From: a virus
Lineage: Duplodnaviria > Caudoviricetes
DNA: 32,852 nt
IMG/VR virus record: IMGVR_UViG_3300006097_000017
Coordinates: 1-32,852 of that record
Strand: one strand, 5' to 3'
The notes below the pieces were generated by a model. It saw only the letters and a program-made list of their open reading frames with translations. It made no database searches and had not been told where the DNA came from. Both the position numbers and the translations under genes were made by a program. Positions 183-31,787 of the stretch are shown here, one piece after another (positions within the stretch are counted from its first letter, which is position 1; each line of letters starts with the position of its first letter).

Positions 183-884
183 GTGATGGTGAAATATTAC
201 AAGGTCTTGGACAAGCACGGCCACTCTTGCCACGGCGGTGAGGCTGAGTGGTCCCTACCGACGCGAAATGAGGACGGGTCTTGGACACCCGGAGAGTGGA
301 TGCCACCGGTCGAAGGCGATTTGGAGCCATGTCTGAACGGGTACCACGTCGTGAGTATTGAACAATTGCCGAGGTGGCTCAGCGAGCGGATATTCGAGGT
401 GGAACCCGGCAAGGACGTCGTGAATGATGGCGACGAGATTATCACAAGGACTTGCCGCCTAACACGCGAATACCTGGGATGGAACGATTACACAGCTAGG
501 CTATTCGTTTGCGATTGTGCTGAACATGTATTGCCTTTATACGAGGCCGAGTACCCTAATGATGATAGACCGCGTAAAGCTATTGAGACAGCCCGGAGAT
601 ACGCTAATGGCGAAGCAACCGAACTAGAGATGAGTGCCGCACATATCGCCGCAGAGTCCGCACAGGTTGCAGCAGAGGGGGCCGCATTGGGCAACGCCTA
701 TGGGGCAGCACAGGTCGCCGTACTGGCTGCACTATCAGCGTGGGGTGCACGAGACCAAATGGTTCTCACAGACACTATACGTATAGCTGAAGGGGTTGCA
801 GCATCAAGGACAGCCGAACGGCAATGGCAGGCCGAGCGGCTGAAAAGACTTCTGGAGGAGGCGAACGGCAATGATAAAGAGTGA
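183..884 (+). CDS. Phage protein with Imm5-like domain (paralogue 1)
   Basis: ARLFVCDCAEHVLPLYE..YPNDDRPRKAIETARRY motif, Ala-rich helical repeat and ERQWQ end. Confidence 0.75.
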   Translation: MMVKYYKVLDKHGHSCHGGEAEWSLPTRNEDGSWTPGEWMPPVEGDLEPCLNGYHVVSIEQLPRWLSERIFEVEPGKDVVNDGDEIITRTCRLTREYLGWNDYTARLFVCDCAEHVLPLYEAEYPNDDRPRKAIETARRYANGEATELEMSAAHIAAESAQVAAEGAALGNAYGAAQVAVLAALSAWGARDQMVLTDTIRIAEGVAASRTAERQWQAERLKRLLEEANGNDKE

Positions 885-6414: not shown

Positions 6415-7272
6415 ATGTGCAAAATACCTGGAGGATACATCCTTTTGTCGCGTAAACTGCTTGAGAGCGAGGTTATGCGTAAGCCTCCACTGTACCTGAA
6501 GGTCTTCGTGTGGTTGATGCTCAAGGCACAGCACAAGCCATACGACGGTCTTGAGAGGGGTGAGCTTGTGACAAGTATCGCTGAAATTCAAAAGGCAATG
6601 ACATACAAAATCGGCTTCAGAAAAGTCGTGCCGTCAAAAAAACAAATTTGGGACATTTTGGAGTGGATGCGAGGCTCAAACGCTGATCCTGACGAGGTTT
6701 CTACGAAGGTAACGATGAAGGTAACGAAAATAGAGACTATGAAGGTAACGAAGAAGATTCGCGTAAAGCTAGTCAACTACGACGTTTACCAAGATCCTGA
6801 GAGCTATGAAGGTAACGAAAAAAACTCTACGAAGGGAACGATGAAGGTGACGCCTAATAATAAACAAGAATGTTACAAGAATGATAATTATAAATACTCT
6901 CGTCAAAAAACCGCCGACGAGAGTAGCGAGCAGAGCATGAAAGTGCCGGTCAAAAAAATCGTCGATGCATGGAACGAAGTCTTCGCCGGGACGCTGGTTC
7001 CGAAAGTCCGTGAAGTAAATGCTTCTCGGGCTAAGTGGATAAAGCGGGAGTACCTCAAACAGCGGGACGACCTGAAGACCGTCGAAGACTTCAAAGCCTT
7101 GTTCGAGTATATCCGGGATGATTGCCCCTTCATCATGCAAAGTCTGGCTGACGGGCGGTCCTGGTTCTCGTTCAACTGGCTGTTCAAGTACGAGAACAAC
7201 TTCACCAAGGTCATCGAGGGGACCTACGAGGCTAGGAATAAAACTCCGGACAAGGGCAAACGTCCGATTTAG
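6415..7272 (+). CDS. Phage replication initiator (replisome organiser, lambda O-like role)
   Basis: N-terminal GYILLSRKLL..wHTH-like region, central repeats, C-terminal WFSFNWLF...NFTKVIEGTY motif. Confidence 0.8.
   Translation: MCKIPGGYILLSRKLLESEVMRKPPLYLKVFVWLMLKAQHKPYDGLERGELVTSIAEIQKAMTYKIGFRKVVPSKKQIWDILEWMRGSNADPDEVSTKVTMKVTKIETMKVTKKIRVKLVNYDVYQDPESYEGNEKNSTKGTMKVTPNNKQECYKNDNYKYSRQKTADESSEQSMKVPVKKIVDAWNEVFAGTLVPKVREVNASRAKWIKREYLKQRDDLKTVEDFKALFEYIRDDCPFIMQSLADGRSWFSFNWLFKYENNFTKVIEGTYEARNKTPDKGKRPI
6700..6896 (+). repeat. Iteron array and AT-rich tract (probable origin)
   Basis: GAAGGTAACGA at 6705, 6717, 6741 and 6808, variants at 6831 and 6843, then AT-rich 6856-6896. Confidence 0.75.
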
Positions 7273-11698: not shown

Positions 11699-12238
11699 CT
11701 ACGCACCCAATACACCACGTGTTATGGCGTCGGCAATTTTGTCGCGTCCGTCCTGCGAACGCAGAATATTGTAATCAACGCCACCGTCGCACGAGATAAA
11801 CGCCGTTTCGACCAATACAGCAGGCATTGCCGTACGACGTAGCACCGTAAGGTCAGGACGTGGCTTCACTCCACGGTTACGTAGTCCGAGTTCCGTAAGA
11901 TTGTCAAGTATGTCTTCAGCGACTGGTACCGACTGCGACGTTAGAGAATACACCAACACCTCGGAACCATGCGCTTGACGTGACGTGACAGCGTTTGTGT
12001 GGACCGAGATAAAAAGGTCAGCGTTTGCTTCGTTGGCAGCGTACGCTCGCTCAGACAAGGGAATGTATACATCGGCATCCCGTGTCAGCACCACGTCGAG
12101 TTCAAAGGATCGTAGTTTATCGGCCAGCTTGCGAGATATGTCAAGCACGATATCTTTCTCCTGCAAGCCATCAAAAGCGACAGCCCCCGGGTCCTTTCCG
12201 CCGTGTCCAGGGTCTACACAAACAACCGACCTAGGCAT
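11699..12238 (-). CDS. Endolysin, N-acetylmuramoyl-L-alanine amidase (Amidase_3)
   Basis: VDPGHGGKDPGA, QEKD, LTRDAD, FISVHTNA, PAVLVETAFI; GAGGAGGTG RBS before ATG 12238. Confidence 0.93.
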   Translation of the reverse strand: MPRSVVCVDPGHGGKDPGAVAFDGLQEKDIVLDISRKLADKLRSFELDVVLTRDADVYIPLSERAYAANEANADLFISVHTNAVTSRQAHGSEVLVYSLTSQSVPVAEDILDNLTELGLRNRGVKPRPDLTVLRRTAMPAVLVETAFISCDGGVDYNILRSQDGRDKIADAITRGVLGA

Positions 12239-12276
12239 CCGGCACCACCTCCTCAGGAATGAGATGACCATTCATA

Positions 12277-12675
12277 TCACCACTCCACAGCTTCCAACTC
12301 TTCGATGGTGGTCGCCGCTTCGATTTGTGTTTGAAGCATCTTTTCTTTCTGATACAGCCCTTGGAGAAATGTCTGAAATTCGTTGTAAAGCTCTATAAAG
12401 TCCGAAGCCGTCATTTCAAGCCAGCCGGTTTTAGTCTTCCAAATAGTAGTAAATGTCGGGTCGTTAATGCTTGCTATAAATGCTTGAAAGAATCGGTCTT
12501 GTGATTCACGGTCAGAATGAAACTCATGACCGTTATACATATAGCCTCCCGTTTCCTCCTGCCAGCGCAAGTCGGCGATCTTAGCTATTTTTTCAGCTTT
12601 CAGTTTTCCTAAATCAATAACCCACTTTTCACCATCCCACATATGAAGTGGGCTAGGTTGTCTAGGTTGTCCCAT
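12277..12675 (-). CDS. DUF4376-like tail fibre assembly protein
   Basis: WDGEKWV, SDRESQ, WKT, and QIEAATTIEELEAVEW terminus. Confidence 0.75.
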   Translation of the reverse strand: MGQPRQPSPLHMWDGEKWVIDLGKLKAEKIAKIADLRWQEETGGYMYNGHEFHSDRESQDRFFQAFIASINDPTFTTIWKTKTGWLEMTASDFIELYNEFQTFLQGLYQKEKMLQTQIEAATTIEELEAVEW

Positions 12676-12958
12676 TAATCATCGCCTCCGCCTCTTCTTT
12701 AGATATACCGAGCAGTGCAAGCTTGCAACCGGGGTCGAATCCCCATGTCAGCTGGTATCGCTCGCCGTTCTCATCGATTCTGACACAATGGGTAGCGTCC
12801 TCTATTCCAGTTTCGCCATCTGCAAGCTTTACGGGGTTTATCCAGTTTTCGCTTTCCTCGATGTACTTTTGCAAAAACGCTTTCATCTCAGCAGGGTGTG
12901 TATTGAGCAAAATCTCAACATCCCGCCGCGTATTTATATGTTTCGGAAACCCTCTCAA
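12662..12958 (-). CDS. Hypothetical tail-fibre-associated protein
   Basis: GGAGGTG RBS 6 nt before TTG 12958 (MRGFPKHINTRRDV); the ORF-track start at 13003 lies inside the TR fragment. Confidence 0.7.
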   Translation of the reverse strand: MRGFPKHINTRRDVEILLNTHPAEMKAFLQKYIEESENWINPVKLADGETGIEDATHCVRIDENGERYQLTWGFDPGCKLALLGISKEEAEAMINGTT

Positions 12959-12970
12959 ATAAGACACCTC

Positions 12971-13022
12971 CAACGTGAACCGCAATTCGTGCCATTGTCC
13001 CAATTACTGCCTGCCTGAAGCT
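12971..13022 (-). repeat. Truncated DGR template repeat (TR, 5' part only)
   Basis: 45/52 identical to 13138-13189; all 7 mismatches are A in this copy on the coding strand. Confidence 0.9.
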
Positions 13023-13064
13023 AAGGGGAGACCGCAAAACCAAAACATTAAATACTAGTAAATA

Positions 13065-13189
13065 CTAAACAGGCTCCGCCGCCCCCCGCGCCCCGCGATT
13101 CGAATCCGCAGTCCAGCGTGGGTTAGACGCATTTCGACAACGCGAACCGCAATTCGCGCCATCGTCCCAATCACCGCCCGCCCGAAGCT
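13065..13189 (-). repeat. DGR variable repeat (VR) at the 3' end of the tail fibre gene
   Basis: Encodes LRAGGDWDDGANCGSRCRNASNPRWTADSNRGARGAAEPV, a CLec-fold VR pattern; 22-nt G/C-only run at 13076-13097. Confidence 0.85.
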
Positions 13190-14591
13190 TCACATCCGCT
13201 CTACCATTTACTCCATCTTGGTTATACAAAGATCCCTTAGCGCCGGGCAGATCGTACCAACCCCACCCGGACACGTAATCGCTACGGAACGATTGGTCGC
13301 TCAGCCATTGCCACATCACCCCAGCACAATCTTCGCAGCCGATTGCAGAAATCATCCGTCTGCTAGCGGTATCGATGTGCCCGCCGGTTGTCCCGGGATC
13401 TGCTGACCCGGCAATATTTGTTTCCTCATTCCCGCCTGCCGCGATTTTCTGAAATTCGCCGTCGTCAAGCAAACGTTTATTCACCGCCGCGAGATCATCA
13501 ACATGATCCATCCACGTCCGAGTATCCGTGATCGTTGCGCCATAGGCGGATGCAGTGGTTGCGGCTGTGCCTGATTGCAGATAGATATCCACCCAGATGT
13601 TGGCGGCGGCGCACCATACCATCCCCTCAGGTGACGCTGATTTCGGACGGTGTTTCAAATCCCACACTGAAAGCGGAAGAATGTCACCAGCGACAAAATC
13701 AGACAGCGGGTGGCCGGGAATTGTGCCAACGTCTTCACACAGACAATGGAAGCCACCGATTTTCCGGCTTGTGTCGGCCGTATAGCCAGCGGGGTAGGTC
13801 GAGTTGGCCGACAATAACAGAACAGGCGTATTGCCCGACGTAGGCTCGCAAGCGTAGACGTAGAAATCCTTCCCTTTCCTGTTTGCCGCAACGGTGTAGT
13901 CAGGAGATGTGGTATCCCAGTGCGCGGGGTTGCTCAAGTCTAGTTCGATCTGGCTCGTGAGCGTGTACACTGCGCCGTTAATGCCAACGACAAGGCCGCC
14001 ACTCGGCGAAACCCACGTATACCTGTCAGCGGCAACAGAGGTGCCTTTAATTGCAGGCACGCTTCCACGCTCGTAGACGTTCGAGGCATCAGCAGTAGCG
14101 CCGATTTCGGATAGGTGCTTGCCGTCAAGTAGGTCGGCATTCAAACTCACGTTCAAAGTACCGTTGCTGACCGGCACATTACCGGACGCGTTGCCAGCAT
14201 GGTAGCCGTCTAGAGTGTCAGCGTTTACAGCAACAGGAACACCGTTTGTCCAAGTGACGCCATTGTCATTGCTGAACCTAACATAAGCATCGCCTTGCTG
14301 GTAATCCGTGTGCCAGTTGGCGTTGTCTGGCGAAAACTGCATAAGCACGTTAGGGGCGTCTTGTCCATCATCACCAATAAACTTGTAGCCCTGTGTCCAA
14401 GTGCTCCCGCCGTCCGTCGATATGCGCATATATATGTCTCCAGCTTGAAATGTGTCATGCCACGTTGAGTTGTCGGTTGAGTACTGTATTTTAAGCTCCG
14501 GGCCCGGAATCCCTTGCGGCCCTACGGCCAATCTGGGAGTTATAATCGGTTGTGTCCCAGTTTGAGCAATTATTACGATTTTTTCTCCCAT
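13065..14591 (-). CDS. Tail fibre / major tropism determinant (Mtd-like, C-terminal CLec fold), DGR target
   Basis: GPQGIPGP, duplicated N-terminal module, NAD(T/L)LDG repeats, SRKIGGFH, EDCAGVMWQW, GGxWxxGxxCGSR. Confidence 0.88.
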   Translation of the reverse strand: MGEKIVIIAQTGTQPIITPRLAVGPQGIPGPELKIQYSTDNSTWHDTFQAGDIYMRISTDGGSTWTQGYKFIGDDGQDAPNVLMQFSPDNANWHTDYQQGDAYVRFSNDNGVTWTNGVPVAVNADTLDGYHAGNASGNVPVSNGTLNVSLNADLLDGKHLSEIGATADASNVYERGSVPAIKGTSVAADRYTWVSPSGGLVVGINGAVYTLTSQIELDLSNPAHWDTTSPDYTVAANRKGKDFYVYACEPTSGNTPVLLLSANSTYPAGYTADTSRKIGGFHCLCEDVGTIPGHPLSDFVAGDILPLSVWDLKHRPKSASPEGMVWCAAANIWVDIYLQSGTAATTASAYGATITDTRTWMDHVDDLAAVNKRLLDDGEFQKIAAGGNEETNIAGSADPGTTGGHIDTASRRMISAIGCEDCAGVMWQWLSDQSFRSDYVSGWGWYDLPGAKGSLYNQDGVNGRADVKLRAGGDWDDGANCGSRCRNASNPRWTADSNRGARGAAEPV

Positions 14592-14595
14592 AACG

Positions 14596-14946
14596 TTATC
14601 CCCTTTCTATTACCCTTAGCCTGCCTACGACTATTTGATACTTTGGCACCCCACCCGGGAACATCATGTCTATGATATAGAACTTGCCACCCTGTGGGAT
14701 AATCGCAGTCTGCTCCGGAGTCATTTTTATCAAAACTTCACCTACTTCATTTAGCTCTATGTCACCCGTTGCGCTTGACAGTGTTATAATCGGGATTCCA
14801 TCCTCGAAACTGTCAAATATCCTCATCTCCATGGAATAGCCTGTAAAGTTAACAGGGGCGTCACCTATCTTGTAGATGAAACTTGTATCCCACGAATATC
14901 CGATTATAACCGGTTCAAAATCATCATAATGTGCAGGCAATATCAT
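14596..14946 (-). CDS. Tail fibre adaptor (BppU-like beta protein)
   Basis: PVNFTGYSMEMRI...ITLSS..G.I.L...MTPEQT pattern; directly upstream of the fibre gene. Confidence 0.55.
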   Translation of the reverse strand: MILPAHYDDFEPVIIGYSWDTSFIYKIGDAPVNFTGYSMEMRIFDSFEDGIPIITLSSATGDIELNEVGEVLIKMTPEQTAIIPQGGKFYIIDMMFPGGVPKYQIVVGRLRVIERG

Positions 14947-14958
14947 CGGACAGCCTCC

Positions 14959-17900
14959 TCACTTTTTATATCCTATCAAGTCTGCCAATTCCCCGGTCTC
15001 GGAGAATTTCAGGCCGCGCTTGATGGCTACGGCAGGTATAGGCGCACTGGTCATGATTAACTTGTGCAGACCTTCGAGCATCTTCGCAACATCACCCTCA
15101 CCGGCGGCTTTCAGGATTGTACCGGTACTTTCAAAAAGCTCCGTGCCGGGGATCGTTCCTCCATAATAAGTAGACTTCGCACCCATCTCTATTGATTTGC
15201 CTATGAAAGGCATCATCTTTATGAGATTGAGAATAAACTCCTGTCCAAATTCTGCAGCGTCATCTATTGCCCCGGCCAATGCAACTATAAAAGCGGAAGA
15301 TACCGCAAGTGCTGAGGCTTGTTTGATAGCTAATCCATAATCTCCGTCCCTGATGGAATTTGGTATATCATTGATGGCGACATTGAAATTCTGTGTCAGC
15401 TGGTTTGTAAAAAGCAGGATCCCCCTCATAATCTCGCCACCGAAGCCCTTACCGGTACGCATCCTGTTCAAGTATACAGCTTCCCCTTGCGGCTGTGTTT
15501 TGACTATGACCTTATCGGCATACATCCGGGCGGACTTTTCATCCATCCCTTTGCTTAAGGCTGTTTCGTAACAACTTAACCACCCCAAACTTACCGCGAC
15601 ACTATCTATAAATCCTTGCGGCGACATGCTAAGGTACTCAAGCCTGGCTATAGTTCGTCTGACTTCGCTTTCGGCATGTCTTATTTGTGAGCGGGCTTCT
15701 CTTGATACGATGTTAAATGTCCTGAACCTGACAGTAGGCGACATCATGTTGATACGTTTCCATGTTCCTATCGGATCTGCCACAAACCTGTTGAGCGCCC
15801 TTGCCACACCGTTAGCATTGGAATGGGCCAAGGCCAGTGTGATTGATGGAAACTGTCTCAATATCGAGACTCCGTTAAGGACTAGCACATTCAACGCTTT
15901 GGCATGCCGGAGCGTTCTGATTGTCCTGGCGAAAGCATCATGACTGTACATGGTCAGCGGGTTAAGTGCTACATCTATATATCTGTTAATGGCCTCTATT
16001 GAGCCTTTGCCATGGACGGCTTCGATACGATTGAGTAAATCATTGTCATTAAAAATACGCCTCATAAGCCCTATAGGCTCGCTGAAAGCCTTTATCCTTG
16101 CCTGTTGATCGATAGTGGTCGACCATATACCCGCAAAGTCCAGCGACAGTGCAGATTTAGGCTCCGGGTCAGTCGTTCTCTGTTTTTCTATGGAACGCCT
16201 TGCCGGGCCCTCAATTCTCAAAAACTGCGTGGCGAAGTCCTCGCTAGCCGTCCCTTCAATGGTGGTTTTACCAGCCAACCTCGCCAGCCTGAAATAGAAG
16301 TTTTCCCTTGAAAGCAATCTGCCTGTTCTTACCAATACGGCTTCGGCAAGAGCATCGTATTGCGCTTCCAAGTCCTTGACTATCATGTCTACGAATTGCC
16401 TGTCCTTGGTGCTGAGGCTGCTTATAGCCTTGTCTATGAAGGCTTCTGAATAGCCGTTGTCTCTTGTGAGTGCCTCGTATCCTCTTGCCTGCCTTGCATA
16501 GGCATAAATGCTAAACAGATTGTTTTTCGTAAACGTCTTGCCGTCGATTGTTACCCTCTTTTGCAGATAAGAGACACTACCAAAGAATTCCTTTACTTTA
16601 TTCTGGAGCCATCTCGTTCTTTCGTTTACTTCAAGATTGTATTGTCCATTGGCTTCTATCATGGAATCGCCCATAAGCTCAGCCAGCATGGACTTGTTGG
16701 AACCCGTAAGATATTCTCCCAGCCGCATAAAGTTTAACGTTGAATTCAGATATGCCTTGACCACGGATGACATTTTCCCGGGTTCCTTTGCGTAGGAAAT
16801 AGCCCTTCCTTTAAGGTTCACTTCCTCGCCCATGCTCAAGGCTTGTCTTGTAGCTTCATGTATAGCCTTGCTCTTTTCAGAAGCGTCAGGATTCATGACC
16901 GCATTCACGATATCCTTGAAGGTTACTTTCTCTCCGGTAGCTTTAGAGACATTGTCGACCAGCGTTTTTTGTTTCATGCCACCCTTTTTGAGCATGTTTT
17001 TCAGTCCGGTCTCGACAATCTGTCTGGAAAACCGGACGTCAATTCTCTTGTTAGTGTCTTCTGCAATCTCCTGTGCCTTTATGTCTACTGTACTTGTGAC
17101 TTGCTTCAGGGCATTAGACCCTATCTTTTTGGCAGCTACGACAAATCTGGAAAATTCCTCCAGCTCACCAAAGGTCAACATATCAAGATTGTCTTTTTGT
17201 ATTGCAGACCTTATTTTCGCTTCATCTACACCGGCGAATATCATTCGGTCGAATTTCTTAAGCCTGTCTATTGCCTCCAAGGCTTCATTCAAGGTCTTTG
17301 CCCTTGTTGCCTGGTCTGCTGACTTGCTTTTTGTTTTCTTAAAACCACGAAGAATCTCATTAAGCGGTATCGCCACCCTTGGATGTAAGGTAGCTTTAAC
17401 ATTCTCCCTGGTCATTTTGCTTATTGCGGTTGTATTTTTATTAATTGTGTTTATGAGTTTGTCTATACGCTTCAGCGCAAGCAACTGGTCGAACATCTTT
17501 TTTATCTTGTTGTCCAGTTCCTTGATTTTGTCCTTTTCGCCCTTTTGTACAGCTTCTTCTCGTTGTTTTTGTATGGACTTCAGAATATCGCTGCGGGTTC
17601 TCTTTTTCTCTATCTGCCTGATTTCAGCAAGGGTAAAATTCTCAAAAGGACTCTTCTTTGAACCGAATATCTGAAGGTCGAAAATCCTCTTGAAGATAGG
17701 GTTCATCTTCTCAGGATTAGTGAGATAATCCATCGCTTGCTGTTTCAAGGTTTTCGAGTCTATGGCTATGTCGAGGCCGAGATCGTTCAGGTCTTTCTGA
17801 ACAGCTTTCACGTATTCTTTGGAGCTAAGTTTTTCAGCTATATTCTCTACAGAAGCCTCCCTGAGGTTTTCTATCTCATTGGAAAACTCCAGATTCTGCT

Positions 17901-19458
17901 TTACATCTGCAGTCAGGTCTTGTGCAACCGCAACTTCTCCCTTGAACGTTTCATTCAAGACGGGCTCGGTTATTGTAACTAAAGTCTCCGTACTTATCCC
18001 GTCCAGTTCAGCCTGTGTCTCAGCAGGAGTTTTTACATCAAGCCTGCTTGACGGTGCAGTCTCAGTGGCTATTGTTTCGGTGACATCTCTGGCTACTACA
18101 GGACGCCCCCTGCCGGTACTTACAGCACCAACAAAGCCTGCTGTGGGAAGAGACACCGCAAAAGCCACCAAGGCGTTCTTCAAGGCTTCTTTATCAGTAA
18201 AGGGAACGTTATGAGCGAATGCAGTTGTTACATCTTCCTGTACTGCTTCCTGTACGCCTTCGGCAAGTGCACTCTTCCAGAACCTGGACAAAAAGTCCTG
18301 ACCGCCACGTTCGGCGAATACGCCCATTTTACCTGTAGCGGCTGTAGCCGAAGCCTCAATAAAGAAGTGAGTCCTGGCCGTTTGCATTGCAAAGTCGCTG
18401 TTATTGGTTCTTTTGTAGACTTCCCTGTATACTTCCCTTGAGTCTATGAGTGTTTCAAGGACGACCGGTACGGCTAAAGACAGTGCGGCTCCCAACGCCA
18501 TCCCTATAGGCCCCAGGAGGCTCCCTGCACCAATCATGGCGGCCCTTATCCCGGCATGTACGAGGACAAAGGAAGCTACGGAATGACCGGCCCCGGAAAC
18601 CATTTTCAAAGCCCATTCGAGCTTATTTTCGTCTGCTGTTTCAAGTGCTTCGGCCATCAGGTTCCATTCAGTCTGATGACGGGAAGTGATGGTACCTTCT
18701 ATTGCATCAAGCATCTTGAAAGCATTTGTAAAGAAAGGAACCATGACGACATTGTAGAATTTGTCCTTTTCAGCGTAGGTTTTTATGCTGTTTATAAATT
18801 CCTCTTGCTCCGTCGAGAGCTTGTTACGCTTGACCCAGTCCTCATAAGCATCTTGCTCGGCTACTATCATCGGATTCTTGGCCCTTTTGACACGCTCTTC
18901 CTTAGGGATACTGTTATACCGACTGTCATATTCGTCGAAGTTACGAAACACAAGCTGCGGGTCGTCTATGCCAAAATACTCGGCATAATAGAAAGCTCTT
19001 GACATCTTGTTTTCATCAATACCTAACTCTTGATACAGGTCGTCTTTACGTGCTTTGATATCAGTTTTGACCATGGCTAAGGCTTCCGGTGTTATGCCGA
19101 ATTTTTCCTGTATGTCGAAGTCACTTACACCTGAAGCCCGGGCGTCCATGATAACGCCTCTCATGATACGCATTGCGTAATCAGGCGATATGTTCTTGTT
19201 TTTCAATTCCTCAAGATTGTCTTTGATGTTAGGGAACAAGGCAGACAAGTGGTCATAGGTCATCATGGAGTCCTGAAATGCATAAGCCTCTACAACAGGG
19301 CCTCCATAACCAGAGATATATTTTCTCGACTCTTTGCTGGGAACAGGCTCCCTTGATTCCGCCAAGGACGGGAAGACGTTATTTATGTCTTCACCAAGAG
19401 TCCTGTCTGGGCCAAGATGTTTTTCAATTAATTCTCTCGGGCTTCCTACTAATCCCAT
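14959..19458 (-). CDS. Large internal virion / DNA ejection protein (~1500 aa)
   Basis: Largest ORF, helical with hydrophobic segments; third of three genes after tail tube B and the gp13-like gene; AGGTG RBS before ATG 19458. Confidence 0.7.
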   Translation of the reverse strand: MGLVGSPRELIEKHLGPDRTLGEDINNVFPSLAESREPVPSKESRKYISGYGGPVVEAYAFQDSMMTYDHLSALFPNIKDNLEELKNKNISPDYAMRIMRGVIMDARASGVSDFDIQEKFGITPEALAMVKTDIKARKDDLYQELGIDENKMSRAFYYAEYFGIDDPQLVFRNFDEYDSRYNSIPKEERVKRAKNPMIVAEQDAYEDWVKRNKLSTEQEEFINSIKTYAEKDKFYNVVMVPFFTNAFKMLDAIEGTITSRHQTEWNLMAEALETADENKLEWALKMVSGAGHSVASFVLVHAGIRAAMIGAGSLLGPIGMALGAALSLAVPVVLETLIDSREVYREVYKRTNNSDFAMQTARTHFFIEASATAATGKMGVFAERGGQDFLSRFWKSALAEGVQEAVQEDVTTAFAHNVPFTDKEALKNALVAFAVSLPTAGFVGAVSTGRGRPVVARDVTETIATETAPSSRLDVKTPAETQAELDGISTETLVTITEPVLNETFKGEVAVAQDLTADVKQNLEFSNEIENLREASVENIAEKLSSKEYVKAVQKDLNDLGLDIAIDSKTLKQQAMDYLTNPEKMNPIFKRIFDLQIFGSKKSPFENFTLAEIRQIEKKRTRSDILKSIQKQREEAVQKGEKDKIKELDNKIKKMFDQLLALKRIDKLINTINKNTTAISKMTRENVKATLHPRVAIPLNEILRGFKKTKSKSADQATRAKTLNEALEAIDRLKKFDRMIFAGVDEAKIRSAIQKDNLDMLTFGELEEFSRFVVAAKKIGSNALKQVTSTVDIKAQEIAEDTNKRIDVRFSRQIVETGLKNMLKKGGMKQKTLVDNVSKATGEKVTFKDIVNAVMNPDASEKSKAIHEATRQALSMGEEVNLKGRAISYAKEPGKMSSVVKAYLNSTLNFMRLGEYLTGSNKSMLAELMGDSMIEANGQYNLEVNERTRWLQNKVKEFFGSVSYLQKRVTIDGKTFTKNNLFSIYAYARQARGYEALTRDNGYSEAFIDKAISSLSTKDRQFVDMIVKDLEAQYDALAEAVLVRTGRLLSRENFYFRLARLAGKTTIEGTASEDFATQFLRIEGPARRSIEKQRTTDPEPKSALSLDFAGIWSTTIDQQARIKAFSEPIGLMRRIFNDNDLLNRIEAVHGKGSIEAINRYIDVALNPLTMYSHDAFARTIRTLRHAKALNVLVLNGVSILRQFPSITLALAHSNANGVARALNRFVADPIGTWKRINMMSPTVRFRTFNIVSREARSQIRHAESEVRRTIARLEYLSMSPQGFIDSVAVSLGWLSCYETALSKGMDEKSARMYADKVIVKTQPQGEAVYLNRMRTGKGFGGEIMRGILLFTNQLTQNFNVAINDIPNSIRDGDYGLAIKQASALAVSSAFIVALAGAIDDAAEFGQEFILNLIKMMPFIGKSIEMGAKSTYYGGTIPGTELFESTGTILKAAGEGDVAKMLEGLHKLIMTSAPIPAVAIKRGLKFSETGELADLIGYKK

Positions 19459-19474
19459 AACAAGCACCTGCCAT

Positions 19475-21037
19475 CTACTTCCCGAGCATATTCAACAAAT
19501 TCTGCATGGTCTTCTCTATTGTGCCTATCTGTTCTTCCTCGAATTCTTCTGTCGGGACTCCTATATTCAAGGAAAACTCTGCAAGCCTTTGGTAATCCGG
19601 CATACCTAAAGACTTATACAGGTTAGATGTATATTTAATCAACGTTCCATGATTATCCCTGTTGACATCGAATATCCTGTTTTCTCCTGTGGCATATTTG
19701 TTTATCACGTTCATAAACGATTCCTGTAAATCGAATTGTTCTTTCCCGGGAAGCGGCCTGTAACTTTGCCACAACGCAAGTATCTCTACAAAGTCCTCCA
19801 GGATAGGTAGTCTTAGCGATTCATCTATGACACCTTTGGAGATAAGTTTTTTGACATATTTCTCGGAGCTTTTGTAAATTTCACTAGCATCGATAAGTTT
19901 AATATCCCCTAATTTCTTTTCCAATGTGCCTTCTCTGAGTTTTGAAACAAACGATTCTCTTGTCTTTAACATCCCGTCAAGGATATCTGCAACGCTCTTG
20001 TCTCCGGCACTTTTCAGATAATCTATCAATATAGCAGCATCAGCAGTATGTACGGTAGGATCGAGAACATATGAAATAGCCATCTGCCTGATACTGGCTA
20101 TTTGCTCCGGAGAGAGCGGTACAGTCTGTTTGGCCAGACTAGTTTCAAGTGCTCCTACCCAGTTATGCATCGTTATCCGCATACTTTCGTCAATTTCCCC
20201 GTTTTCGTACAACCGTTCTATCTCCGGGTGGGTTATCGGTATACGCCCTGTCGCGTAATATTGAGCGTGCAAGTCACCAAGCAGGTCCTTTTGACGTGTC
20301 CGGAATTCCTCCTCGTAACGATTCTTGAAATACTCACGCTCACGTACCAATTTGGCCTGCAATTCAGGCGACAGGTCTTCAGGTATTTCATACTGGACAG
20401 GGTCTTGCATTATAAGGACACGTTCCCTGTTGAAGATGGCATCCTCTTCAGCCGCTTTTACAAGAGCCTGTTTCTTGGTTTCAGCGATCCATGTAGGAGC
20501 TATTGTCTCCAGTTGTTTTATTTCATCCACATCGCCGTTTGAAGCTGCTGTATCGAGGGCATCAGTCCACTGGGCAAGGGCCCTGTCATTTTTCCTGTTG
20601 GCTATAAAGGCAGCCACATCTATATCATGTTGCGCGGAGGCCAATTCCCAGTACTTATCGAATTCCTCCAGTACTTCTATATCTTCTATGTTAGACCTAA
20701 CAGTGGTGTAGGCTTTTTGCTTCGACTTTTCCCACTGTACCGGTATGTTTTCTATCTCTTCGTTTTCCAGCTGTAATTTAGCTTCCCCGAGAGAACGGAT
20801 AAGCTGTGCCTTGGAATAAGCGAACTCTATGGCCTGTCTGCGCTGTGCTTCTTCCTTGGCTTTCTCGACAAGGTCTTTTGAGAGCAAATAGGTGCGCTTG
20901 CCTGCTTCCTCAAGTACCTGGGCACCATACATCCTGGCTCTTGCCGCATCATCGAATACGTATGGTGTTTTTACCTCGCCACTATCTGCAGGCGGTAACT
21001 CTTGCGGTTGGTAAGTAGGTATCTTGCTTCTTGCCAT
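19475..21037 (-). CDS. Internal virion protein (gp15-like position)
   Basis: MARSKIPTY start, alpha-helical, synteny. Confidence 0.65.
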   Translation of the reverse strand: MARSKIPTYQPQELPPADSGEVKTPYVFDDAARARMYGAQVLEEAGKRTYLLSKDLVEKAKEEAQRRQAIEFAYSKAQLIRSLGEAKLQLENEEIENIPVQWEKSKQKAYTTVRSNIEDIEVLEEFDKYWELASAQHDIDVAAFIANRKNDRALAQWTDALDTAASNGDVDEIKQLETIAPTWIAETKKQALVKAAEEDAIFNRERVLIMQDPVQYEIPEDLSPELQAKLVREREYFKNRYEEEFRTRQKDLLGDLHAQYYATGRIPITHPEIERLYENGEIDESMRITMHNWVGALETSLAKQTVPLSPEQIASIRQMAISYVLDPTVHTADAAILIDYLKSAGDKSVADILDGMLKTRESFVSKLREGTLEKKLGDIKLIDASEIYKSSEKYVKKLISKGVIDESLRLPILEDFVEILALWQSYRPLPGKEQFDLQESFMNVINKYATGENRIFDVNRDNHGTLIKYTSNLYKSLGMPDYQRLAEFSLNIGVPTEEFEEEQIGTIEKTMQNLLNMLGK

Positions 21038-21047
21038 CAAGCTCGCC

Positions 21048-21674
21048 TCACTTCTGTTTCCCGCTGATTAAAGACGGAGGCTCGTATACCGGGAACGTTG
21101 GAGTTATAACTACACCTTTCCTTTTATCCTGTTCCTTCTTCTTGTCTGCACTCTTGAACGGGTTCTCAAACAATCCCAAATCTATGCCGGTCATATATGC
21201 CTGACCTAAACCGGTGGTCATAGTCAACAGGCTACCTGTACGGCCCACATATGTATAATAACCGGCAGTGCTTCTTAAGGACTGGGCTTTAGTCTTTTCC
21301 AGGGCGGCAGCCGAGTATTGTTTCCTGGCCTCTACGTCGCCCTGATATAGCTTCATCATCTTGTCAGTTTCTATTTTCCTGGCGGTCTCGGCCACCATAT
21401 GCAAAGGCGTACCTGTGGTAGTAGCATACCCTCTGGAGGCATATGCAGCCCTCTGCTCTGAAAGCATCCTTGCACCGGCCTGCCTTATCAAAGCCGCCTC
21501 GTAGGAGAACCTTTGCCGGACAGCTTCGGCTTCCTTTGCGCTTACGTCGGCGTTATATTCAAGAGCAGCAGCCTGCGCCTTGGCAGCCTCGGATTGTGCC
21601 TCAGCCGCCCTGTACTGGGCCACACCCTGGGCTATAGACGAAACAGCCTGCAAAGCTACCGCGACTTCACTCAT
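21048..21674 (-). CDS. Internal virion protein (gp14-like)
   Basis: Ala/Gln-rich, QRAAYASRG..TGTP motif, synteny. Confidence 0.7.
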   Translation of the reverse strand: MSEVAVALQAVSSIAQGVAQYRAAEAQSEAAKAQAAALEYNADVSAKEAEAVRQRFSYEAALIRQAGARMLSEQRAAYASRGYATTTGTPLHMVAETARKIETDKMMKLYQGDVEARKQYSAAALEKTKAQSLRSTAGYYTYVGRTGSLLTMTTGLGQAYMTGIDLGLFENPFKSADKKKEQDKRKGVVITPTFPVYEPPSLISGKQK

Positions 21675-22081
21675 GGTTTCATCACCACCATAAACGTTTT
21701 CCCCTTATAGACGCCGTCCAGATGGTAGTAGATACCCACAGGTTTCGTGAATCCCATCCATTCGATAAACCGCCTGTGCACTTCGTTATCTATGCCATAG
21801 GTGGCAGTTACGGCCTTCGCACCGGATTTTCTTACAAGTTCATCCAGCAGCTTCTTTATCTTCTTGCATACTGAAATGTAATATAGTTCAAATTTATCCC
21901 CGTGAATGAACCACGCTTCAGCAAGCCCGCCTGTAGAGGTCCTTACCCCGCCGCATGCTATAACCTTACCATCCTTTATCACGCTGTAGGCCGGCAGGTT
22001 TTCATCGTTCAGCATCATCATCTCAGGGTCATATCCTGTTTCTGTTAAATGCTCCGGCTTGTACTGGACAAATTCAATCAT
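21671..22081 (-). CDS. GNAT-fold virion assembly protein (gp13-like)
   Basis: VIACGG..AEAW...HRRFIEWMGF; follows tail tube B. Confidence 0.7.
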   Translation of the reverse strand: MIEFVQYKPEHLTETGYDPEMMMLNDENLPAYSVIKDGKVIACGGVRTSTGGLAEAWFIHGDKFELYYISVCKKIKKLLDELVRKSGAKAVTATYGIDNEVHRRFIEWMGFTKPVGIYYHLDGVYKGKTFMVVMKP

Positions 22082-24540
22082 TCTGCCAACACCAGCCTCA
22101 GTATCAGTGATGTTACATTCATCGGGTAAGGCTCGTTCTGCAAGATGGTAATGTATTGTCCATAATCCGATGGAGCATCGACCAGTATAGGCGGTGTATC
22201 CCCGGTGAACATCTCCGGCGAAACGACCAAGGGCTTACCAGCCTTGCTTATGTACTGTATCCTCTTTACGTCCGCTTCATTGAAACCTATATACCCTCCT
22301 ACCGTATTCACGAGTCTCGGAATCACATGCACCGTCCGCCTGATTGTACCGTGAGTGGTATCCGGCGGCGTGGCGTGCTCTGCATTAATAGTTTTTAACT
22401 TGCTCGTGTAATTGAGTCCTATCCAGACATTGCTTGCTTCGGTATCAAGGCTTATGGCTCCATTTACAACAGTTTTGTTTCCTGCATATTTCCCGTCTGC
22501 GATTATCGTCACCTTTTCGCCTTCTAGGTAGGACAGGCCGTATATTTCGGTTACCGGGGCTCCGTAATACTGTGCGGCACAGTCCATGAATACCGAGTTT
22601 TCAAGGGTACCATCCCACTCCTCGATATATTCTATGTATCGCTTCGTAACACCGTTGATTGTCCTTTTTACGACAACCCAAAGTTGATTCGGTATCGCAG
22701 CCACACTTTCCACTTCACTGCTTCCCGCCTTGGTCGACATTACATGCCTGCTCCAGGCAAAGACCTTGTGTTCCGGTGTATACGTCAAACCAAGCAATTG
22801 ACCGTCTTCTCTTATGGTCCAGACAGATGACCATGGGGATTTCAGATATGCAAGCCCCTTTATACCTTTGCCGGTTATATGGTCACTCATTACGGTCAGG
22901 TCAAAGGCATAATAGGTATCACTGGCCCAGTCATACTGAATGTTCCTCAGTATCTTACCTCCGTATTGAATGAACACCGCATAACCGTTGGCTACGACAG
23001 CCTGAGTGTCCTCGCTCCCGAAGTTGGTCTCACGTCTTAATCCAGGCGGATTGTCTGGTGTGATATTGCTCCCGTCAAATATCCATTCATCACCGGCAGT
23101 ACCAAGAATCAGGTTACCCTTGGAAGCCATCCATACTACAGTATTGACTTCGCTTGCGATAGGCTGTATGTCCAACGAATCATCGGCATTCCCCTCGCCT
23201 GCATCGAAGTTATCATAAGCATCGGACTTGGACGCCCATATTCTGTTCGGAGCCGTATAGGTTCCGCCAAACCAAAGCCTGCCGTCGTGGAATGTAATCC
23301 CTCTCGGGAACCCGGTGGTGTAACTCCATGCTCCGAGAGCCCAGCTGTATGCCGGTAAGCCGATCCAGTCGAGAGAACTCATTAATGTACCGGTAACAAC
23401 TGTTGATGATGTATAATCCGTTATCTTTATAAAGCCGTTCTTAAAAGAACGTTTCACCCTGAAATTCCACGTTATCTGGCTTGTTGCATTATCTGTGTGT
23501 ATCCTGAATTTGACTGGTGCTCCACTTTGAGAACCCAATTCCTCAGGTTCAGCACTGCCCTCTATAGTGGTGTTGATCCTGTCATCTATTGCATAGTAAT
23601 TCTTCCATGTAGTCCCGCCGTCGATGGAAAACTGCAAATACCATAACTTGCCGGTAGTGCCGGAAAATGTCGCCCTGAATTCCCATTCGCCTTCGCATTC
23701 CCATGAACTTGAACTCCATGGCGAGCCTGAGCCAGTCTGCTGTCCCGAAGAAAGACTTTCTGCTTCTACGGTGTATCGTATCTTTATCCATCTGCCTATA
23801 TCATCGGAAGAGAACAGTGCGCTTGAAGCGGTAACCGTACAGGTGGAACCTCTCTTTCCATCTGTATTGGATACAGTCAAATGATCTTTGCTGACATTTT
23901 CATCGAGGAAGGGCCCATATTTCGGTTCAAGGTCCTCGATAGTCCAGTCATCATGCCAGTACCTTGACAGCTTTTGCGGAGGATAGTCGGGATGTACGAG
24001 AAACAATACGTCTGCTGATTGCGCATATTTAATCAGGTCTAAATCATAATCTGCATACGGAGTATATATCTCATATACATCATCCTGTATCCAATAGGTC
24101 TCCCAGTTGATACCTGACCCCGGGCTGTTGGTGCTATCTGCCGTATGGTCTTGAATACATCTATAAACCAACCCGCCATTATTCACATAGTCATAAGCCT
24201 TGTATCCGGTACTACTGACCCACGCATCAGTGGTTCCGACAGTGCGTACGACATGTCCGCCGTTAGCGCAGACACGCATGTAATGGTCTCCGAATTCCAG
24301 GATATAGCTTTGCTCATTGGAGAAAATAAAGGGGATAAGTCTTGTCTTTTTTGAACTGTCCTTTACTTCGGAGACGAATCTTGTCCCCGGGCGCCTGATA
24401 AGACCACCTTGAGGGAGGACGATGAAATTCTCAAGGGTAAAACAACCGTTGTAATATCGCTCTACATCGGTTCTTCCCATCATATTCGGGGATAATTCCC
24501 CTGCCGTAAAGTTAGTCATAAAGTGGTCTATTATTCTCAT
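22078..24540 (-). CDS. Tail tubular protein B (nozzle)
   Basis: NFTAGELSP..GRTD, PQGGLIRRPGT, LIPF.FS, AQSADV, FP..ITFHDGRL. Confidence 0.9.
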   Translation of the reverse strand: MRIIDHFMTNFTAGELSPNMMGRTDVERYYNGCFTLENFIVLPQGGLIRRPGTRFVSEVKDSSKKTRLIPFIFSNEQSYILEFGDHYMRVCANGGHVVRTVGTTDAWVSSTGYKAYDYVNNGGLVYRCIQDHTADSTNSPGSGINWETYWIQDDVYEIYTPYADYDLDLIKYAQSADVLFLVHPDYPPQKLSRYWHDDWTIEDLEPKYGPFLDENVSKDHLTVSNTDGKRGSTCTVTASSALFSSDDIGRWIKIRYTVEAESLSSGQQTGSGSPWSSSSWECEGEWEFRATFSGTTGKLWYLQFSIDGGTTWKNYYAIDDRINTTIEGSAEPEELGSQSGAPVKFRIHTDNATSQITWNFRVKRSFKNGFIKITDYTSSTVVTGTLMSSLDWIGLPAYSWALGAWSYTTGFPRGITFHDGRLWFGGTYTAPNRIWASKSDAYDNFDAGEGNADDSLDIQPIASEVNTVVWMASKGNLILGTAGDEWIFDGSNITPDNPPGLRRETNFGSEDTQAVVANGYAVFIQYGGKILRNIQYDWASDTYYAFDLTVMSDHITGKGIKGLAYLKSPWSSVWTIREDGQLLGLTYTPEHKVFAWSRHVMSTKAGSSEVESVAAIPNQLWVVVKRTINGVTKRYIEYIEEWDGTLENSVFMDCAAQYYGAPVTEIYGLSYLEGEKVTIIADGKYAGNKTVVNGAISLDTEASNVWIGLNYTSKLKTINAEHATPPDTTHGTIRRTVHVIPRLVNTVGGYIGFNEADVKRIQYISKAGKPLVVSPEMFTGDTPPILVDAPSDYGQYITILQNEPYPMNVTSLILRLVLAE

Positions 24541-24541
24541 G

Positions 24542-25114
24542 CTACCACCTTGTTTCCGTAAAGGGTATCCTTATTTCGGGCTGGAACTTTTTAGTCCTTG
24601 CATCTGCGGCCAATACGTCTATCAAGGTCTTCTGGTAAAGCTCATAAGCAAGTGTCGCAAGTTGCGGGTTACCGGTAAGGCTTATAGCCACCTGAGAGGC
24701 TATAAGGTAGGCCAATGCAGCCCTTGCCTTGGCCTGCATATCCATAACAGTTATAGTGCTGTGGATATAGGTCAACGTTATCGGATTCTCGTTCGCATAT
24801 ATCTTGCCACCGGCAATCTCCCAGTTTATGGTTTCCTTTATCGTTTCACGTGTATTCTGAAGTGCCCTCAAGAAGTCCATAGGTAAATCGAATTCATAAG
24901 TGTAATCTGTATCATCGGGTGCTCCGCCTGTAGCGGTCAGTTTCCTTGTCTTTGTAGCGAAAGACCAGTCGGCCTCACCGAGGAACTCCCAAAAGCACTC
25001 ATAAAACACCATGGAACACGCCCTGGCTTCCTTGGTATCGTCCTGTAAAGAGATGATATTATTCACACCGAGAAACATTAAAGCCCTGTTGCATATAGAG
25101 ACAGGCTCTGCCAC
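24542..25114 (-). CDS. Tail tubular protein A (adaptor)
   Basis: ICNRAL..LG...I.SL, WSFATK, Y.F.LP.DFLR. Confidence 0.85.
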   Translation of the reverse strand: MAEPVSICNRALMFLGVNNIISLQDDTKEARACSMVFYECFWEFLGEADWSFATKTRKLTATGGAPDDTDYTYEFDLPMDFLRALQNTRETIKETINWEIAGGKIYANENPITLTYIHSTITVMDMQAKARAALAYLIASQVAISLTGNPQLATLAYELYQKTLIDVLAADARTKKFQPEIRIPFTETRW

Positions 25115-25130
25115 TTAAAACACCACCTTG

Positions 25131-25159
25131 AATAAAGGCGGGGCAGAAGCCCCGCCTTT
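25131..25159 (-). terminator. Terminator after the capsid/decoration genes
   Basis: AAAGGCGGGGC-ttct-GCCCCGCCTTT-ATT. Confidence 0.75.
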
Positions 25160-25164
25160 TAAGG

Positions 25165-25572
25165 TTATTCCAGCACGTACATGACCATCAGCTTTATGGT
25201 GCCTGTTGCAGCACCGCCAGCAAGAGTTAGAGTTATATTCTCTGTAGCGCTCAAGGCTTTAAACAGGTTGTCTATTTTGTCGAACTCCGCAGAACCAGCA
25301 GTAGACGTGTCAGTCGCAGACAAATATTTATCTGCGGTTGTCCCATCACCCACAGCCAAAGTAGTGAGAGCCCCGAGAGCATCAAAGTAGAGCTTACCTC
25401 CAAGTATCTTTGCGCCCTTCGGAACAGGCATCATAACTATAGTGCTCCCGTCAGCCAAAGAGCTGGCCTCATATTCATCAAACGACACCTTCACCCTAGC
25501 GTTCCAAGTCCCAGGGTCAAGGATATCGCCTCCATCAAACTTGGTCTTGTTAACTCCGTATACCGTCGCCAT
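25165..25572 (-). CDS. Capsid decoration/cement protein
   Basis: 135-aa beta-rich Ala/Gly/Thr protein immediately after the capsid gene. Confidence 0.6.
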   Translation of the reverse strand: MATVYGVNKTKFDGGDILDPGTWNARVKVSFDEYEASSLADGSTIVMMPVPKGAKILGGKLYFDALGALTTLAVGDGTTADKYLSATDTSTAGSAEFDKIDNLFKALSATENITLTLAGGAATGTIKLMVMYVLE

Positions 25573-25601
25573 TATTTAACACCCCCTTAATAGCCTAATC
25601 C

Positions 25602-26480
25602 CTAGGACTCGGCGCAGAGTATCTTGCCGACGCCCTCTTCTTGCATACGAGTCGCGCCCATGCCAAGCCACGCTTGAATGAGAAGGGACTGCCCTTTCTG
25701 AGGAACAGGATCTATCGAAGCACCTATCTCCCGACCGATACCGAGAAGAAGGGCGTTCTTGTGCCAGAACAGGCATTCACGGTATTGGTTCGCATCAGTG
25801 CTTAGCTTGTTGCTCTTGATAAACTTGAATCCAAGGAATGTGTCGAGATCGCCTGCCACAAGGGCTTTCACGGTGTTATAGTCAGCCGAAGTGACTTCCG
25901 TAGTAGCCAGAAGCTCCATCAACTGCTTCGGAGCGATGACTATATACCGTTCATCGTCCGGTGCTTCGTTTTCATCCAGTATTTCCTTGGCCGCACGAAG
26001 CTTGCCCAGATTCATCCCGGTTGCAGTGCTATCTCCAACAGTAACTGCGACCGTCATATTGGCATCATCGAACGGTACAAGCACTGACCCGGTTTCACCG
26101 GTATACGCATTACCGAGCGCAGCCGAAATTATCTCCTTATCGATAGCCCTATTCAACGCCATCGCAAAGTTCATCGCATAGGCATTGGTGGGGTTGTTGA
26201 GGATTTTGTACAAATCCTCCTGATCGATATAGTCAGCTACGTACTTGTCTACCGGCGCAACACGACGCCTTTTGTGCGGCGTGCTTACGACTTCCAGGTC
26301 AGCATGCCTGGTCGTTTTGTTCTTCGCTTCCACCGACGCTATCTGGTCGAAGAAAGCGTACTTACCTTCAACGGGCTCTACCCTTACAGCTTCACGAAGT
26401 TTGCTTCGTTTCTGCTGGTAAAGAATTTCTATGCCCGACTTATATTCCTGCACCATTGCAGTCGTAATCTGCATGGACAT
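25602..26480 (-). CDS. Major capsid protein
   Basis: QQK.SKLR..V, TPHKRR, A.NRAIDK.II.A, TSADYN.VKALV.G..DTFLGFKF, GATR.QE.GV. Confidence 0.9.
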   Translation of the reverse strand: MSMQITTAMVQEYKSGIEILYQQKRSKLREAVRVEPVEGKYAFFDQIASVEAKNKTTRHADLEVVSTPHKRRRVAPVDKYVADYIDQEDLYKILNNPTNAYAMNFAMALNRAIDKEIISAALGNAYTGETGSVLVPFDDANMTVAVTVGDSTATGMNLGKLRAAKEILDENEAPDDERYIVIAPKQLMELLATTEVTSADYNTVKALVAGDLDTFLGFKFIKSNKLSTDANQYRECLFWHKNALLLGIGREIGASIDPVPQKGQSLLIQAWLGMGATRMQEEGVGKILCAES

Positions 26481-26519
26481 TTTTATCAGCTCCCTTTGAT
26501 TAATATTTCGTTACACTTA

Positions 26520-26580
26520 CAGGGTATCCCTTTGCAGGGACCTGATAAAAACCGGTGCGCCGGACCTTACGGGTACCCGA
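26520..26580 (-). promoter_or_regulatory. Twin bulged GNRA hairpins in the capsid gene leader
   Basis: TCGGG-tac-CC-gtaa-GG-TCCGG and CAGG-TCCCT-gcaa-AGGGA-tac-CCTG. Confidence 0.55.
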
Positions 26581-26584
26581 CTAT

Positions 26585-27647: not shown

Positions 27648-27657
27648 TCAGCTACCC

Positions 27658-29586: not shown

Positions 29587-29617
29587 ATAGATTACCCCCT
29601 CTTGTAATATCTCTTTA

Positions 29618-31782: not shown

Positions 31783-31787
31783 CCGGG

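What the first reader, a model, noticed from the sequence alone, without database searches (positions are those of the whole stretch)
12959..13189. Broken diversity-generating retroelement: VR and half a TR, no avd or reverse transcriptase
Seen: 42 nt after the tail fibre stop is a 52-nt copy of the gene's 3' region. TR 12971-13022 reads ag ctt cAg gcA ggc Agt Aat tgg gac Aat ggc Acg aat tgc ggt tcA cgt tg; VR 13138-13189 reads ag ctt cGg gcG ggc Ggt Gat tgg gac Gat ggc Gcg aat tgc ggt tcG cgt tg. Seven of 13 TR adenines differ and none of the 39 non-A positions do. The match stops abruptly and runs straight into the RBS (GGAGGTG) of the next tail gene. Established: adenine-only TR/VR divergence at the C terminus of a CLec-fold fibre is the hallmark of BPP-1-type DGR mutagenic retrohoming. 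Inference: a deletion removed the 3' half of the TR plus avd/RT, freezing one receptor variant while leaving the late operon intact. The VR might still be diversified in trans by a related prophage.
Basis: partly seen in the sequence, partly recalled or inferred. Interest (0 to 1): 0.9.

Follow-up and report, generated by a model that had tools for sequence, protein, structure and literature searches.

The report
Phage tail-fibre mutator lost by deletion
This phage's tail-fibre gene keeps the mutated tip and under half the template of a protein-diversifying retroelement, while the enzyme and helper gene seen in relatives are missing; related fibre modules likely lost that machinery at least four separate times and likely still change their tips by exchanging DNA with relatives.

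Summary
The 52-nt TR/VR pair is real: 7 mismatches, all at TR adenines (P 1.3e-5), at the end of an Mtd-like fibre. Intact relatives read fibre(VR)-TR(~115 nt)-RT-96-aa gene-same downstream gene; the window lacks about 1.5 kb of this, and no RT lies elsewhere in its 32,852 bases. (1) No avd was lost: the lost helper is a predicted OB-fold, SSB-like protein found beside or fused to such RTs. This scan found that helper family, and other DGR relics, before on other DNA. (2) The VR is not frozen in the lineage: the same junction stands in two other data sets with other VRs, which also argues against misassembly. Of 13 close records, 11 lack the RT, in 8 junction types, at least 4 of them non-nested. 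RT-less targets are known (Treponema, PMC4891356). Best reading: a dead cis-element in a mobile fibre module whose tip is refreshed from DGR-bearing relatives by recombination; homing in trans is not excluded.

The parts
13065..14591 (-). Tail fibre gene, 508 aa, C-terminal part homologous to Bordetella phage Mtd (DGR target); reading frame intact
   Evidence: Pfam mtd_2nd E 1.7e-18; phrog_11262 tail protein E 2.4e-62; PDB 1yu4 Mtd E 1.1e-16
13075..13189 (-). Full variable region (VR), about 115 nt, with a GC-rich 3' end (IMH-like, inferred)
   Evidence: Against the TR of intact relative L021, 15 of 30 A sites differ and 2 of 71 non-A sites; extent from the L001 TR match 13189-13075
13023..13064 (-). 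42-nt spacer between fibre stop and TR, conserved in intact and deleted relatives; no stable hairpin
   Evidence: 47 of 52 identical to L023 over 13074-13023; folding z-scores -0.4 to +1.2 in 4 of 4 sequences
12971..13022 (-). 5' remnant of the template repeat (52 of about 115 nt)
   Evidence: 7 A-only mismatches to VR; 51 of 52 identical to the TR of L023, 47 of 52 to L001, 36 of 37 to intact L021
12970..12971 (-). Deletion junction; about 1.5 kb missing (3' TR, TR-RT spacer, RT of about 338 aa, 96-aa OB-fold gene); about 1 nt of microhomology
   Evidence: Comparison with L001 and L021; same junction in L020 and run X1
12662..12958 (-). Conserved 98-aa gene that follows the cassette in intact relatives; TTG start, GGAGG box at 12967-12971
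   Evidence: 72-93% identical in 13 close records; no Pfam or PHROG family
12277..12675 (-). DUF4376 tail-associated gene; end of the shared fibre module
   Evidence: Pfam DUF4376 E 8.8e-18; module limits

Best explanation
This is the remnant of a phage diversity-generating retroelement: the Mtd-like fibre gene and its variable region are intact, while about 1.5 kb present in relatives (the 3' half of the template, the reverse transcriptase and a small predicted OB-fold helper gene) is missing, so the element likely cannot mutate the fibre by itself. Shown: the parent layout target-TR-RT-OB gene, the break point, and the junction in three data sets. Inferred from the BPP-1 mechanism: cDNA is primed from the spacer 3' of TR and starts at the TR 3' end, both gone, so the half TR is no template even for an RT supplied in trans. 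Inferred: the fibre-DGR-chaperone stretch is a mobile module shared by otherwise unlike phages; the machinery has been dropped from it repeatedly, and RT-less copies get new tips mainly by homologous recombination with DGR-bearing relatives in the same communities.
For: A-only mismatches. Intact relatives L001 and L021 carry TR-RT-96-aa gene at exactly this site; 1605 against 106 nt. No RT, OB gene, TR 3' half or spacer elsewhere in the record; the complete relative G004 (terminal repeats, 100%) and G003 (91%) also hold no RT. Same junction in L020 (half TR 50 of 52 identical) and in a 340-nt gap-free X1 contig at depth 37. L020's VR differs from its own half TR at 8 non-A sites, and its fibre falls from 94% identity to the window (14051-13800) to 72-76% (13799-13300): recombination. 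11 of 13 close records lack the RT at this site (one of the 11, L022, judged from 92 nt only), in 8 junction types; window/L020, L002/L003, L005 and L022/L023 each keep sequence that the others lack. Five related virus records share only 259-1543 nt around the fibre with window 12001-32000. Priming from the 3' spacer: PMC6182149 (passages).
Against: The record is about 89% complete and the host genome is unknown, so a donor element elsewhere is not excluded. The X1 VR differs from the window's at 12 of 34 template-A sites but 2 of 81 other sites (Fisher P 5e-6; 18 of that contig's 20 differences were shown), which fits homing in trans as well as short-tract recombination. The window's own VR has no non-A mismatch to its half TR, so it may be the allele frozen at deletion. 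In a tree of the downstream gene the window pairs with intact L021, not with L020 (85/90, not starred), so one origin of the shared junction rests on the junction sequence alone. Only assembled contigs were laid, no raw reads. The priming mechanism is known for BPP-1, not for this Avd-less clade.
Confidence: 0.8

Rival explanations
1. RT-less 'cheater' target: the deleted phage keeps a working VR and is still mutagenised in trans by TR RNA and RT from a co-infecting phage or prophage with an intact cassette.
For: X1 and the window share the junction and differ almost only at template-A sites (12 of 34 against 2 of 81). Contigs in which the OB gene's end is joined to the downstream gene occur in X1, X9 and X15, and contigs with a longer TR in X15, so possible donors co-occur. 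A BPP-1 phage lacking avd, TR and brt is targeted from a donor plasmid (PMC3240598, passages).
Against: L020's VR and upstream fibre differ at many non-A sites, which homing cannot give. In X1 the junction and the whole VR lie in one unbranched 340-nt contig, which suggests one dominant VR allele (contigs drop rare variants). No hairpin after the VR, though intact L001 has none either.
Confidence: 0.3
2. Split but active DGR: a full TR and RT lie in the unassembled part of this genome.
For: The record is linear and about 89% complete.
Against: The cassette's native site is occupied by a clean junction; RT-less relatives at 100% and 91% completeness have no RT anywhere.
Confidence: 0.05
3. Assembly artefact joining the TR to the downstream gene.
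For: The source is a metagenomic assembly, and VR/TR repeats break assemblies (L004 ends in VR, L021 begins in TR).
Against: The junction has about 1 nt of microhomology, not a repeat; it recurs in L020 and X1 with sequence drift on both sides; the exact fibre protein is on record on 3 contigs (these may be re-assemblies of one sample).
Confidence: 0.03
4. Not a TR: a short tandem duplicate of the gene end that decayed by G-to-A changes, as all 7 differences are A/G.
For: 7 of 7 mismatches are A against G.
Against: The same adenines stand in the full TRs of RT-bearing relatives. A to G is the family norm: 726 of 1380 changes to G, C or T in 80 TR/VR pairs, and 96% of 68 C-A-G sites in 37 pairs; 5 of the window's 7 sites are in C-A-G or C-A-C.
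Confidence: 0.01

Closest known systems
Bordetella phage BPP-1 DGR (mtd-avd-TR-brt)
   Same: Mtd-homologous fibre with a C-terminal VR; A-specific TR/VR divergence; podovirus-like head-tail genes.
   Different: No avd in the parent cassette; TR directly behind the target; a small OB-fold gene behind the RT; here RT, helper and TR 3' half are deleted; no stable hairpin after the VR.
Avd-less DGRs, Architecture A (target-TR-RT), and PAG1 of Wu et al. 2018 (PMC5758913)
   Same: TR-RT core without avd; the survey found no avd elsewhere in such genomes (section read). The three PAG1 sequences in its supplement share a motif with the 96-aa family (FTGS/FTNS, FP/PF, C-terminal YY; by eye).
   Different: The paper calls PAG1 tenuous (3 elements). 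Here 99 of 104 loci fetched by the 96-aa family have an RT within 3.5 kb and 6 of 8 longer homologues are RT fusions. Homology to PAG1 was not computed. The length (96 aa) does not fit CH1 (160-169 aa).
RT/TR-less leftover targets in Treponema denticola (PMC4891356)
   Same: Target genes with A-diverged VRs in isolates with no RT (8 of 17 in its Table 1), read as multiple gains and losses (passages).
   Different: Those are bacterial lipoprotein targets with no TR at all; this is a phage fibre module with base-resolved junctions and a half TR.

Membership tests
DGR (functional) | TR/VR repeat pair differing only at TR adenines | tested here: met
   7 of 13 A, 0 of 39 non-A, P 1.3e-5
DGR (functional) | VR at the 3' end of a CLec-fold target gene | tested here: met
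   Mtd homology by sequence, E 1.1e-16 to PDB 1yu4, aligned through the VR; the fibre itself was not folded
DGR (functional) | Reverse transcriptase gene | tested here: not met
   None in 32,852 bases; present at this site in L001 and L021. About 11% of the genome is not assembled
DGR (functional) | Full TR with 3' end (IMH*) and downstream priming spacer | tested here: not met
   52 of about 115 nt; no copy of the 3' half or spacer other than VR itself
DGR (functional) | Ongoing A-specific variation of VR in the population | tested here: inconclusive
   Only contigs could be laid. Many VR alleles among relatives in X4; one dominant allele on the junction contig in X1
BPP-1 type (Architecture B, avd) | avd gene in the cassette (tested on the intact relatives) | tested here: not met
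   38-93 nt between VR and TR in 37 of 37 pairs; PF22296 in 1 of 31 virus records, beside a second, different RT; the 96-aa gene is mainly beta strand
BPP-1 type (Architecture B, avd) | GC-rich hairpin after IMH | tested here: not met
   No fold beyond shuffles in the window, L001, L020 or L023
OB-fold / SSB-like proteins (the deleted 96-aa gene of relatives) | OB-fold barrel | tested here: inconclusive
   Model pLDDT 90.5; best rows are OB folds: 2cqa Z 6.8 rmsd 3.2 over 69, SSB 3lgj Z 6.0 rmsd 2.3 over 68, but Z under 8 is middling; Atlas neighbour cluster 44% Phi29_Phage_SSB
OB-fold / SSB-like proteins (the deleted 96-aa gene of relatives) | Binds single-stranded nucleic acid or the RT | not testable with these tools
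   Needs a bench assay; natural RT fusions are indirect support
PAG1 (Wu et al. 2018) | Sequence homology to the three PAG1 proteins | not tested
   Motif likeness by eye only; the paper's sequences were not handed to any tool

The most novel reading that the evidence does not exclude
DGR hypermutation acts as a public good in this phage community: most copies of a mobile tail-fibre module have thrown away the RT and its OB-fold helper in many independent deletions and live off a minority of intact donors, taking fresh receptor tips by homing in trans and recombination.
Probability: 0.3. Interest if true: 0.7.

Novelty: new variant of a known kind. Interest (0 to 1): 0.42.

Why it matters
A dead DGR alone is ordinary. 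Two things lift it. First, the break points can be read to the base in a module where loss is the majority state (11 of 13 close records), which gives a natural test of when hypermutation is kept or dropped, a question so far modelled (10.64898/2026.02.18.706561, passages). If RT-less phages keep drawing tips from intact neighbours, surveys that require an RT (as in PMC12629997, passages) undercount the reach of DGRs. Second, the deleted helper points to a candidate partner for Avd-less DGRs, whose mechanism is open (PMC5758913); that gene is absent from this window and was noted before by this scan.

Tried and rejected
Junction pattern in viral contigs: 0 matches; a TR pattern found only L001. 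Anchoring on the genes at 14596-14946 and 12277-12675 found no relatives, so the census rests on the 98-aa gene and the fibre. No promoter- or terminator-like site in 12600-13400. No stable hairpin between VR and TR. The 96-aa gene has no Pfam or NCBIfam family, only phrog_19665 of unknown function and no sequence relative in the PDB; CH1 rejected by length; no likeness to the one Avd-like hit. A predicted RT-OB complex was not obtained, so binding is untested. The host could not be named: capsid relatives are under 47% identical and cluster members carry no useful names. The downstream-gene tree is poorly supported (8 of 10 inner branches open) and is not used to count losses. P0047 (MutL plus OB domain) was set aside as a probable chimera. 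Of 22 runs listed only 6 were laid (X1-X4, X9, X15); X2 and X3 look like one data set. Literature searches for repeated DGR loss in phage fibre modules or an OB/SSB accessory gave no such paper (open-access library only).

Full report
Observation. On the minus strand the downstream copy (12971-13022) differs from the gene-internal copy (13138-13189) at 7 places, all adenines of the downstream copy: 7 of 13 A, 0 of 39 other bases, P 1.3e-5. All 7 are A to G. The upstream gene (14591-13065, 508 aa) is homologous to Bordetella phage Mtd (Pfam mtd_2nd; PDB 1yu4 E 1.1e-16) and lies in the late operon of a podovirus-like phage (terminase, head-tail connector, capsid, tail, amidase). The record is the window alone, linear, about 89% complete. 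It holds no RT by Pfam or by a profile of 63 related RTs, best E 0.29, and no second copy of the TR 3' half, spacer or helper gene.

The parent element. L001 and L021 have, between the fibre and a homologue of the 98-aa gene at 12958-12662, a TR of about 115 nt, an RT of about 338 aa (RVT_1) and a 96-aa gene overlapping the RT stop. The stretch from fibre stop to next gene is 1605 nt in L001 and 106 nt here, so about 1.5 kb is gone, with about 1 nt of microhomology. The window's VR fits the TR of L021 over 101 nt: 15 of 30 A sites differ and 2 of 71 others. In BPP-1, cDNA is primed from the spacer 3' of TR and begins at the TR 3' end (PMC6182149, passages); both are missing, so I infer that the remnant is no template.

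No avd was lost. In 37 of 37 intact pairs with an Mtd-like target that I measured, only 38-93 nt separate VR and TR. PF22296 was found in 1 of 31 virus records and in 3 of 8 cellular genomes; the virus hit lies beside a second RT only 34% identical to L001's, and the cellular hits were not examined further. The 96-aa gene folds confidently (pLDDT 90.5) into a mainly beta structure whose best matches are OB folds and SSBs at middling Z (6.8 and 6.0); the ESM Atlas lists a neighbour cluster with 44% Phi29_Phage_SSB and RT proteins of 431-456 aa that contain it. Of 104 loci fetched by this family (the best 80 of 276 viral, and 24 of 24 genomic), 99 have an RT within 3.5 kb (82 directly upstream), 80 show a TR/VR pair, and 5 have no RT, two of them the deletion forms L002/L003. 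In L127 and L135 it sits between VR and TR, the place of avd. Six of 8 longer homologues carry RVT_1, and the sequences show the domain at the RT's C terminus. A motif likeness to PAG1 of Wu et al. (PMC5758913; passages, accessory section, supplement list, part 1 and two searches) is by eye only. That this protein helps the RT is inference; binding is untested. Earlier notes of this scan describe the same family on other DNA; I reached it independently before that look-up.

The junction is real and old enough to drift. L020 has the same join, with a half TR 50 of 52 identical. Run X1 has a 340-nt contig at depth 37 that spans 12854-13193 without gaps. Of 6 runs laid, only X1 showed a listed piece bridging this junction; the piece tables were cut.

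The tip is not frozen in the lineage. L020's VR differs from the window's at 38 of 115 sites, 16 of them non-A, and from its own half TR at 8 non-A sites; its fibre is 94% identical to the window's at 14051-13800 and 72-76% at 13799-13300. That is recombination. X1's VR differs at 12 of 34 template-A sites and 2 of 81 others (P 5e-6; 18 of 20 differences shown), which fits either recombination with a close DGR-bearing donor or homing in trans. Homing in trans works in BPP-1 (PMC3240598, passages). Possible donors co-occur: X1, X9 and X15 hold contigs in which the OB gene's end is joined to the downstream gene, X15 a longer TR, and X4 many VR alleles; whether those contigs carry an RT was not seen. 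Two further fibres, P0056 and P0070, are nearly identical to the window's upstream of VR and differ within it; their DGR state is unknown. Against refreshment in the window itself: its VR has no non-A mismatch to its own half TR, and the X1 junction contig is unbranched.

Loss is repeated. Anchored on the downstream gene, 26 loci came back (6, 20; L001 and L024 are one contig). Thirteen distinct records are at least 72% identical. Two have the RT (L001, L021); 11 lack it at this site (L022 judged from 92 nt), in 8 junction types: window/L020; L002/L003 (OB gene kept); L005; L022/L023 (76 nt of TR, then an HNH endonuclease gene); L025/L026; L027; L028 (last third of the OB gene kept); L029. Three pairs may each be one population. 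Four types each keep sequence that the others lack and cannot be steps of one deletion; the rest could be later trimmings. The complete G004 and the 91% complete G003 have no RT anywhere. Among the 12 distant loci (45% or less), 6 have the OB gene directly upstream, 1 its end, 2 are RT-less and 3 have another layout. Five related virus records share only 259-1543 nt around the fibre with window 12001-32000, so the unit is a mobile module, not a phage species. The downstream-gene tree is too weak to place the losses and pairs the window with intact L021 rather than L020.

The A-to-G skew is normal for the family: G 726, T 355, C 299 in 80 pairs; C-A-G gives G in 96% of 68 sites and C-A-C in 87% of 54; at fourfold-degenerate sites 25 of 32. 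These counts reuse homologous positions. In reconstituted BPP-1, the error giving A to G is 59% of all and depends on context (PMC12875486, passages).

Comparison and verdict. It works like a spent BPP-1-type target; it is not a functional DGR (no RT, no full TR) and its parent is not an avd-type element. RT-less targets and repeated gain and loss are in print for Treponema denticola (PMC4891356, passages); a global survey reports inactive VRs (10.1101/2020.04.01.020958, passages; its supplements were not seen and may bear on this). My eight searches found no paper on repeated cassette loss in a phage fibre module or on an OB-fold accessory. This scan noted several DGR relics before but nothing on look-alike DNA or on repeated loss with recombination. 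I rate it a relic of a new variant of a known kind, interest 0.42; the bolder 'public good' reading has probability about 0.3.

Noticed in passing
37 intact TR/VR pairs among L001-L123: TR adenines in C-A-G become G in 96% of 68 sites and in C-A-C in 87% of 54; at fourfold-degenerate sites 25 of 32 become G, which protein selection does not explain.
   Followed up: partly
Runs X2, X3, X4, loose ends before window 12972: A second deletion form appears to cut the TR within one base of the window's break but joins it to the L022/L023-type ribosome-binding site (8- and 31-nt loose ends). The shared left break is unexplained.
   Followed up: no
Runs X2, X3, 188-nt contig over window 12837-13045: A form about 21 nt shorter than the window across the junction; sequence not resolved.
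   Followed up: no
L023:526-1212: An HNH endonuclease gene stands in place of RT and helper after 76 nt of TR.
   Followed up: partly
Run X1, window 12976: The half TR itself has a VR-like A-to-G change in the junction contig; possibly conversion from VR or homing into the remnant.
   Followed up: no
L012:6945-7300; L006:4844-6897: L012 has a second VR-bearing gene end between target and TR; L006 has two tandem Mtd-like genes and no TR or RT.
   Followed up: no
L144 (record of L090): One phage record carries both an OB-type DGR and a second RT beside an Avd-like gene.
   Followed up: partly
L142: Fibre followed by only the end of the OB gene in a Geobacter-labelled assembly: another RT-less deletion in a distant relative.
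   Followed up: no
window 183-884 and 1241-1936: Two paralogous Imm5-like genes, the second with 12-nt tandem repeats at 1732-1877.
   Followed up: no
window 6700-6852 and 32645-32790: Short direct repeats inside the replication-initiator gene (iteron-like, my reading) and an AT-rich cluster of repeats and palindromes near the contig end.
   Followed up: no
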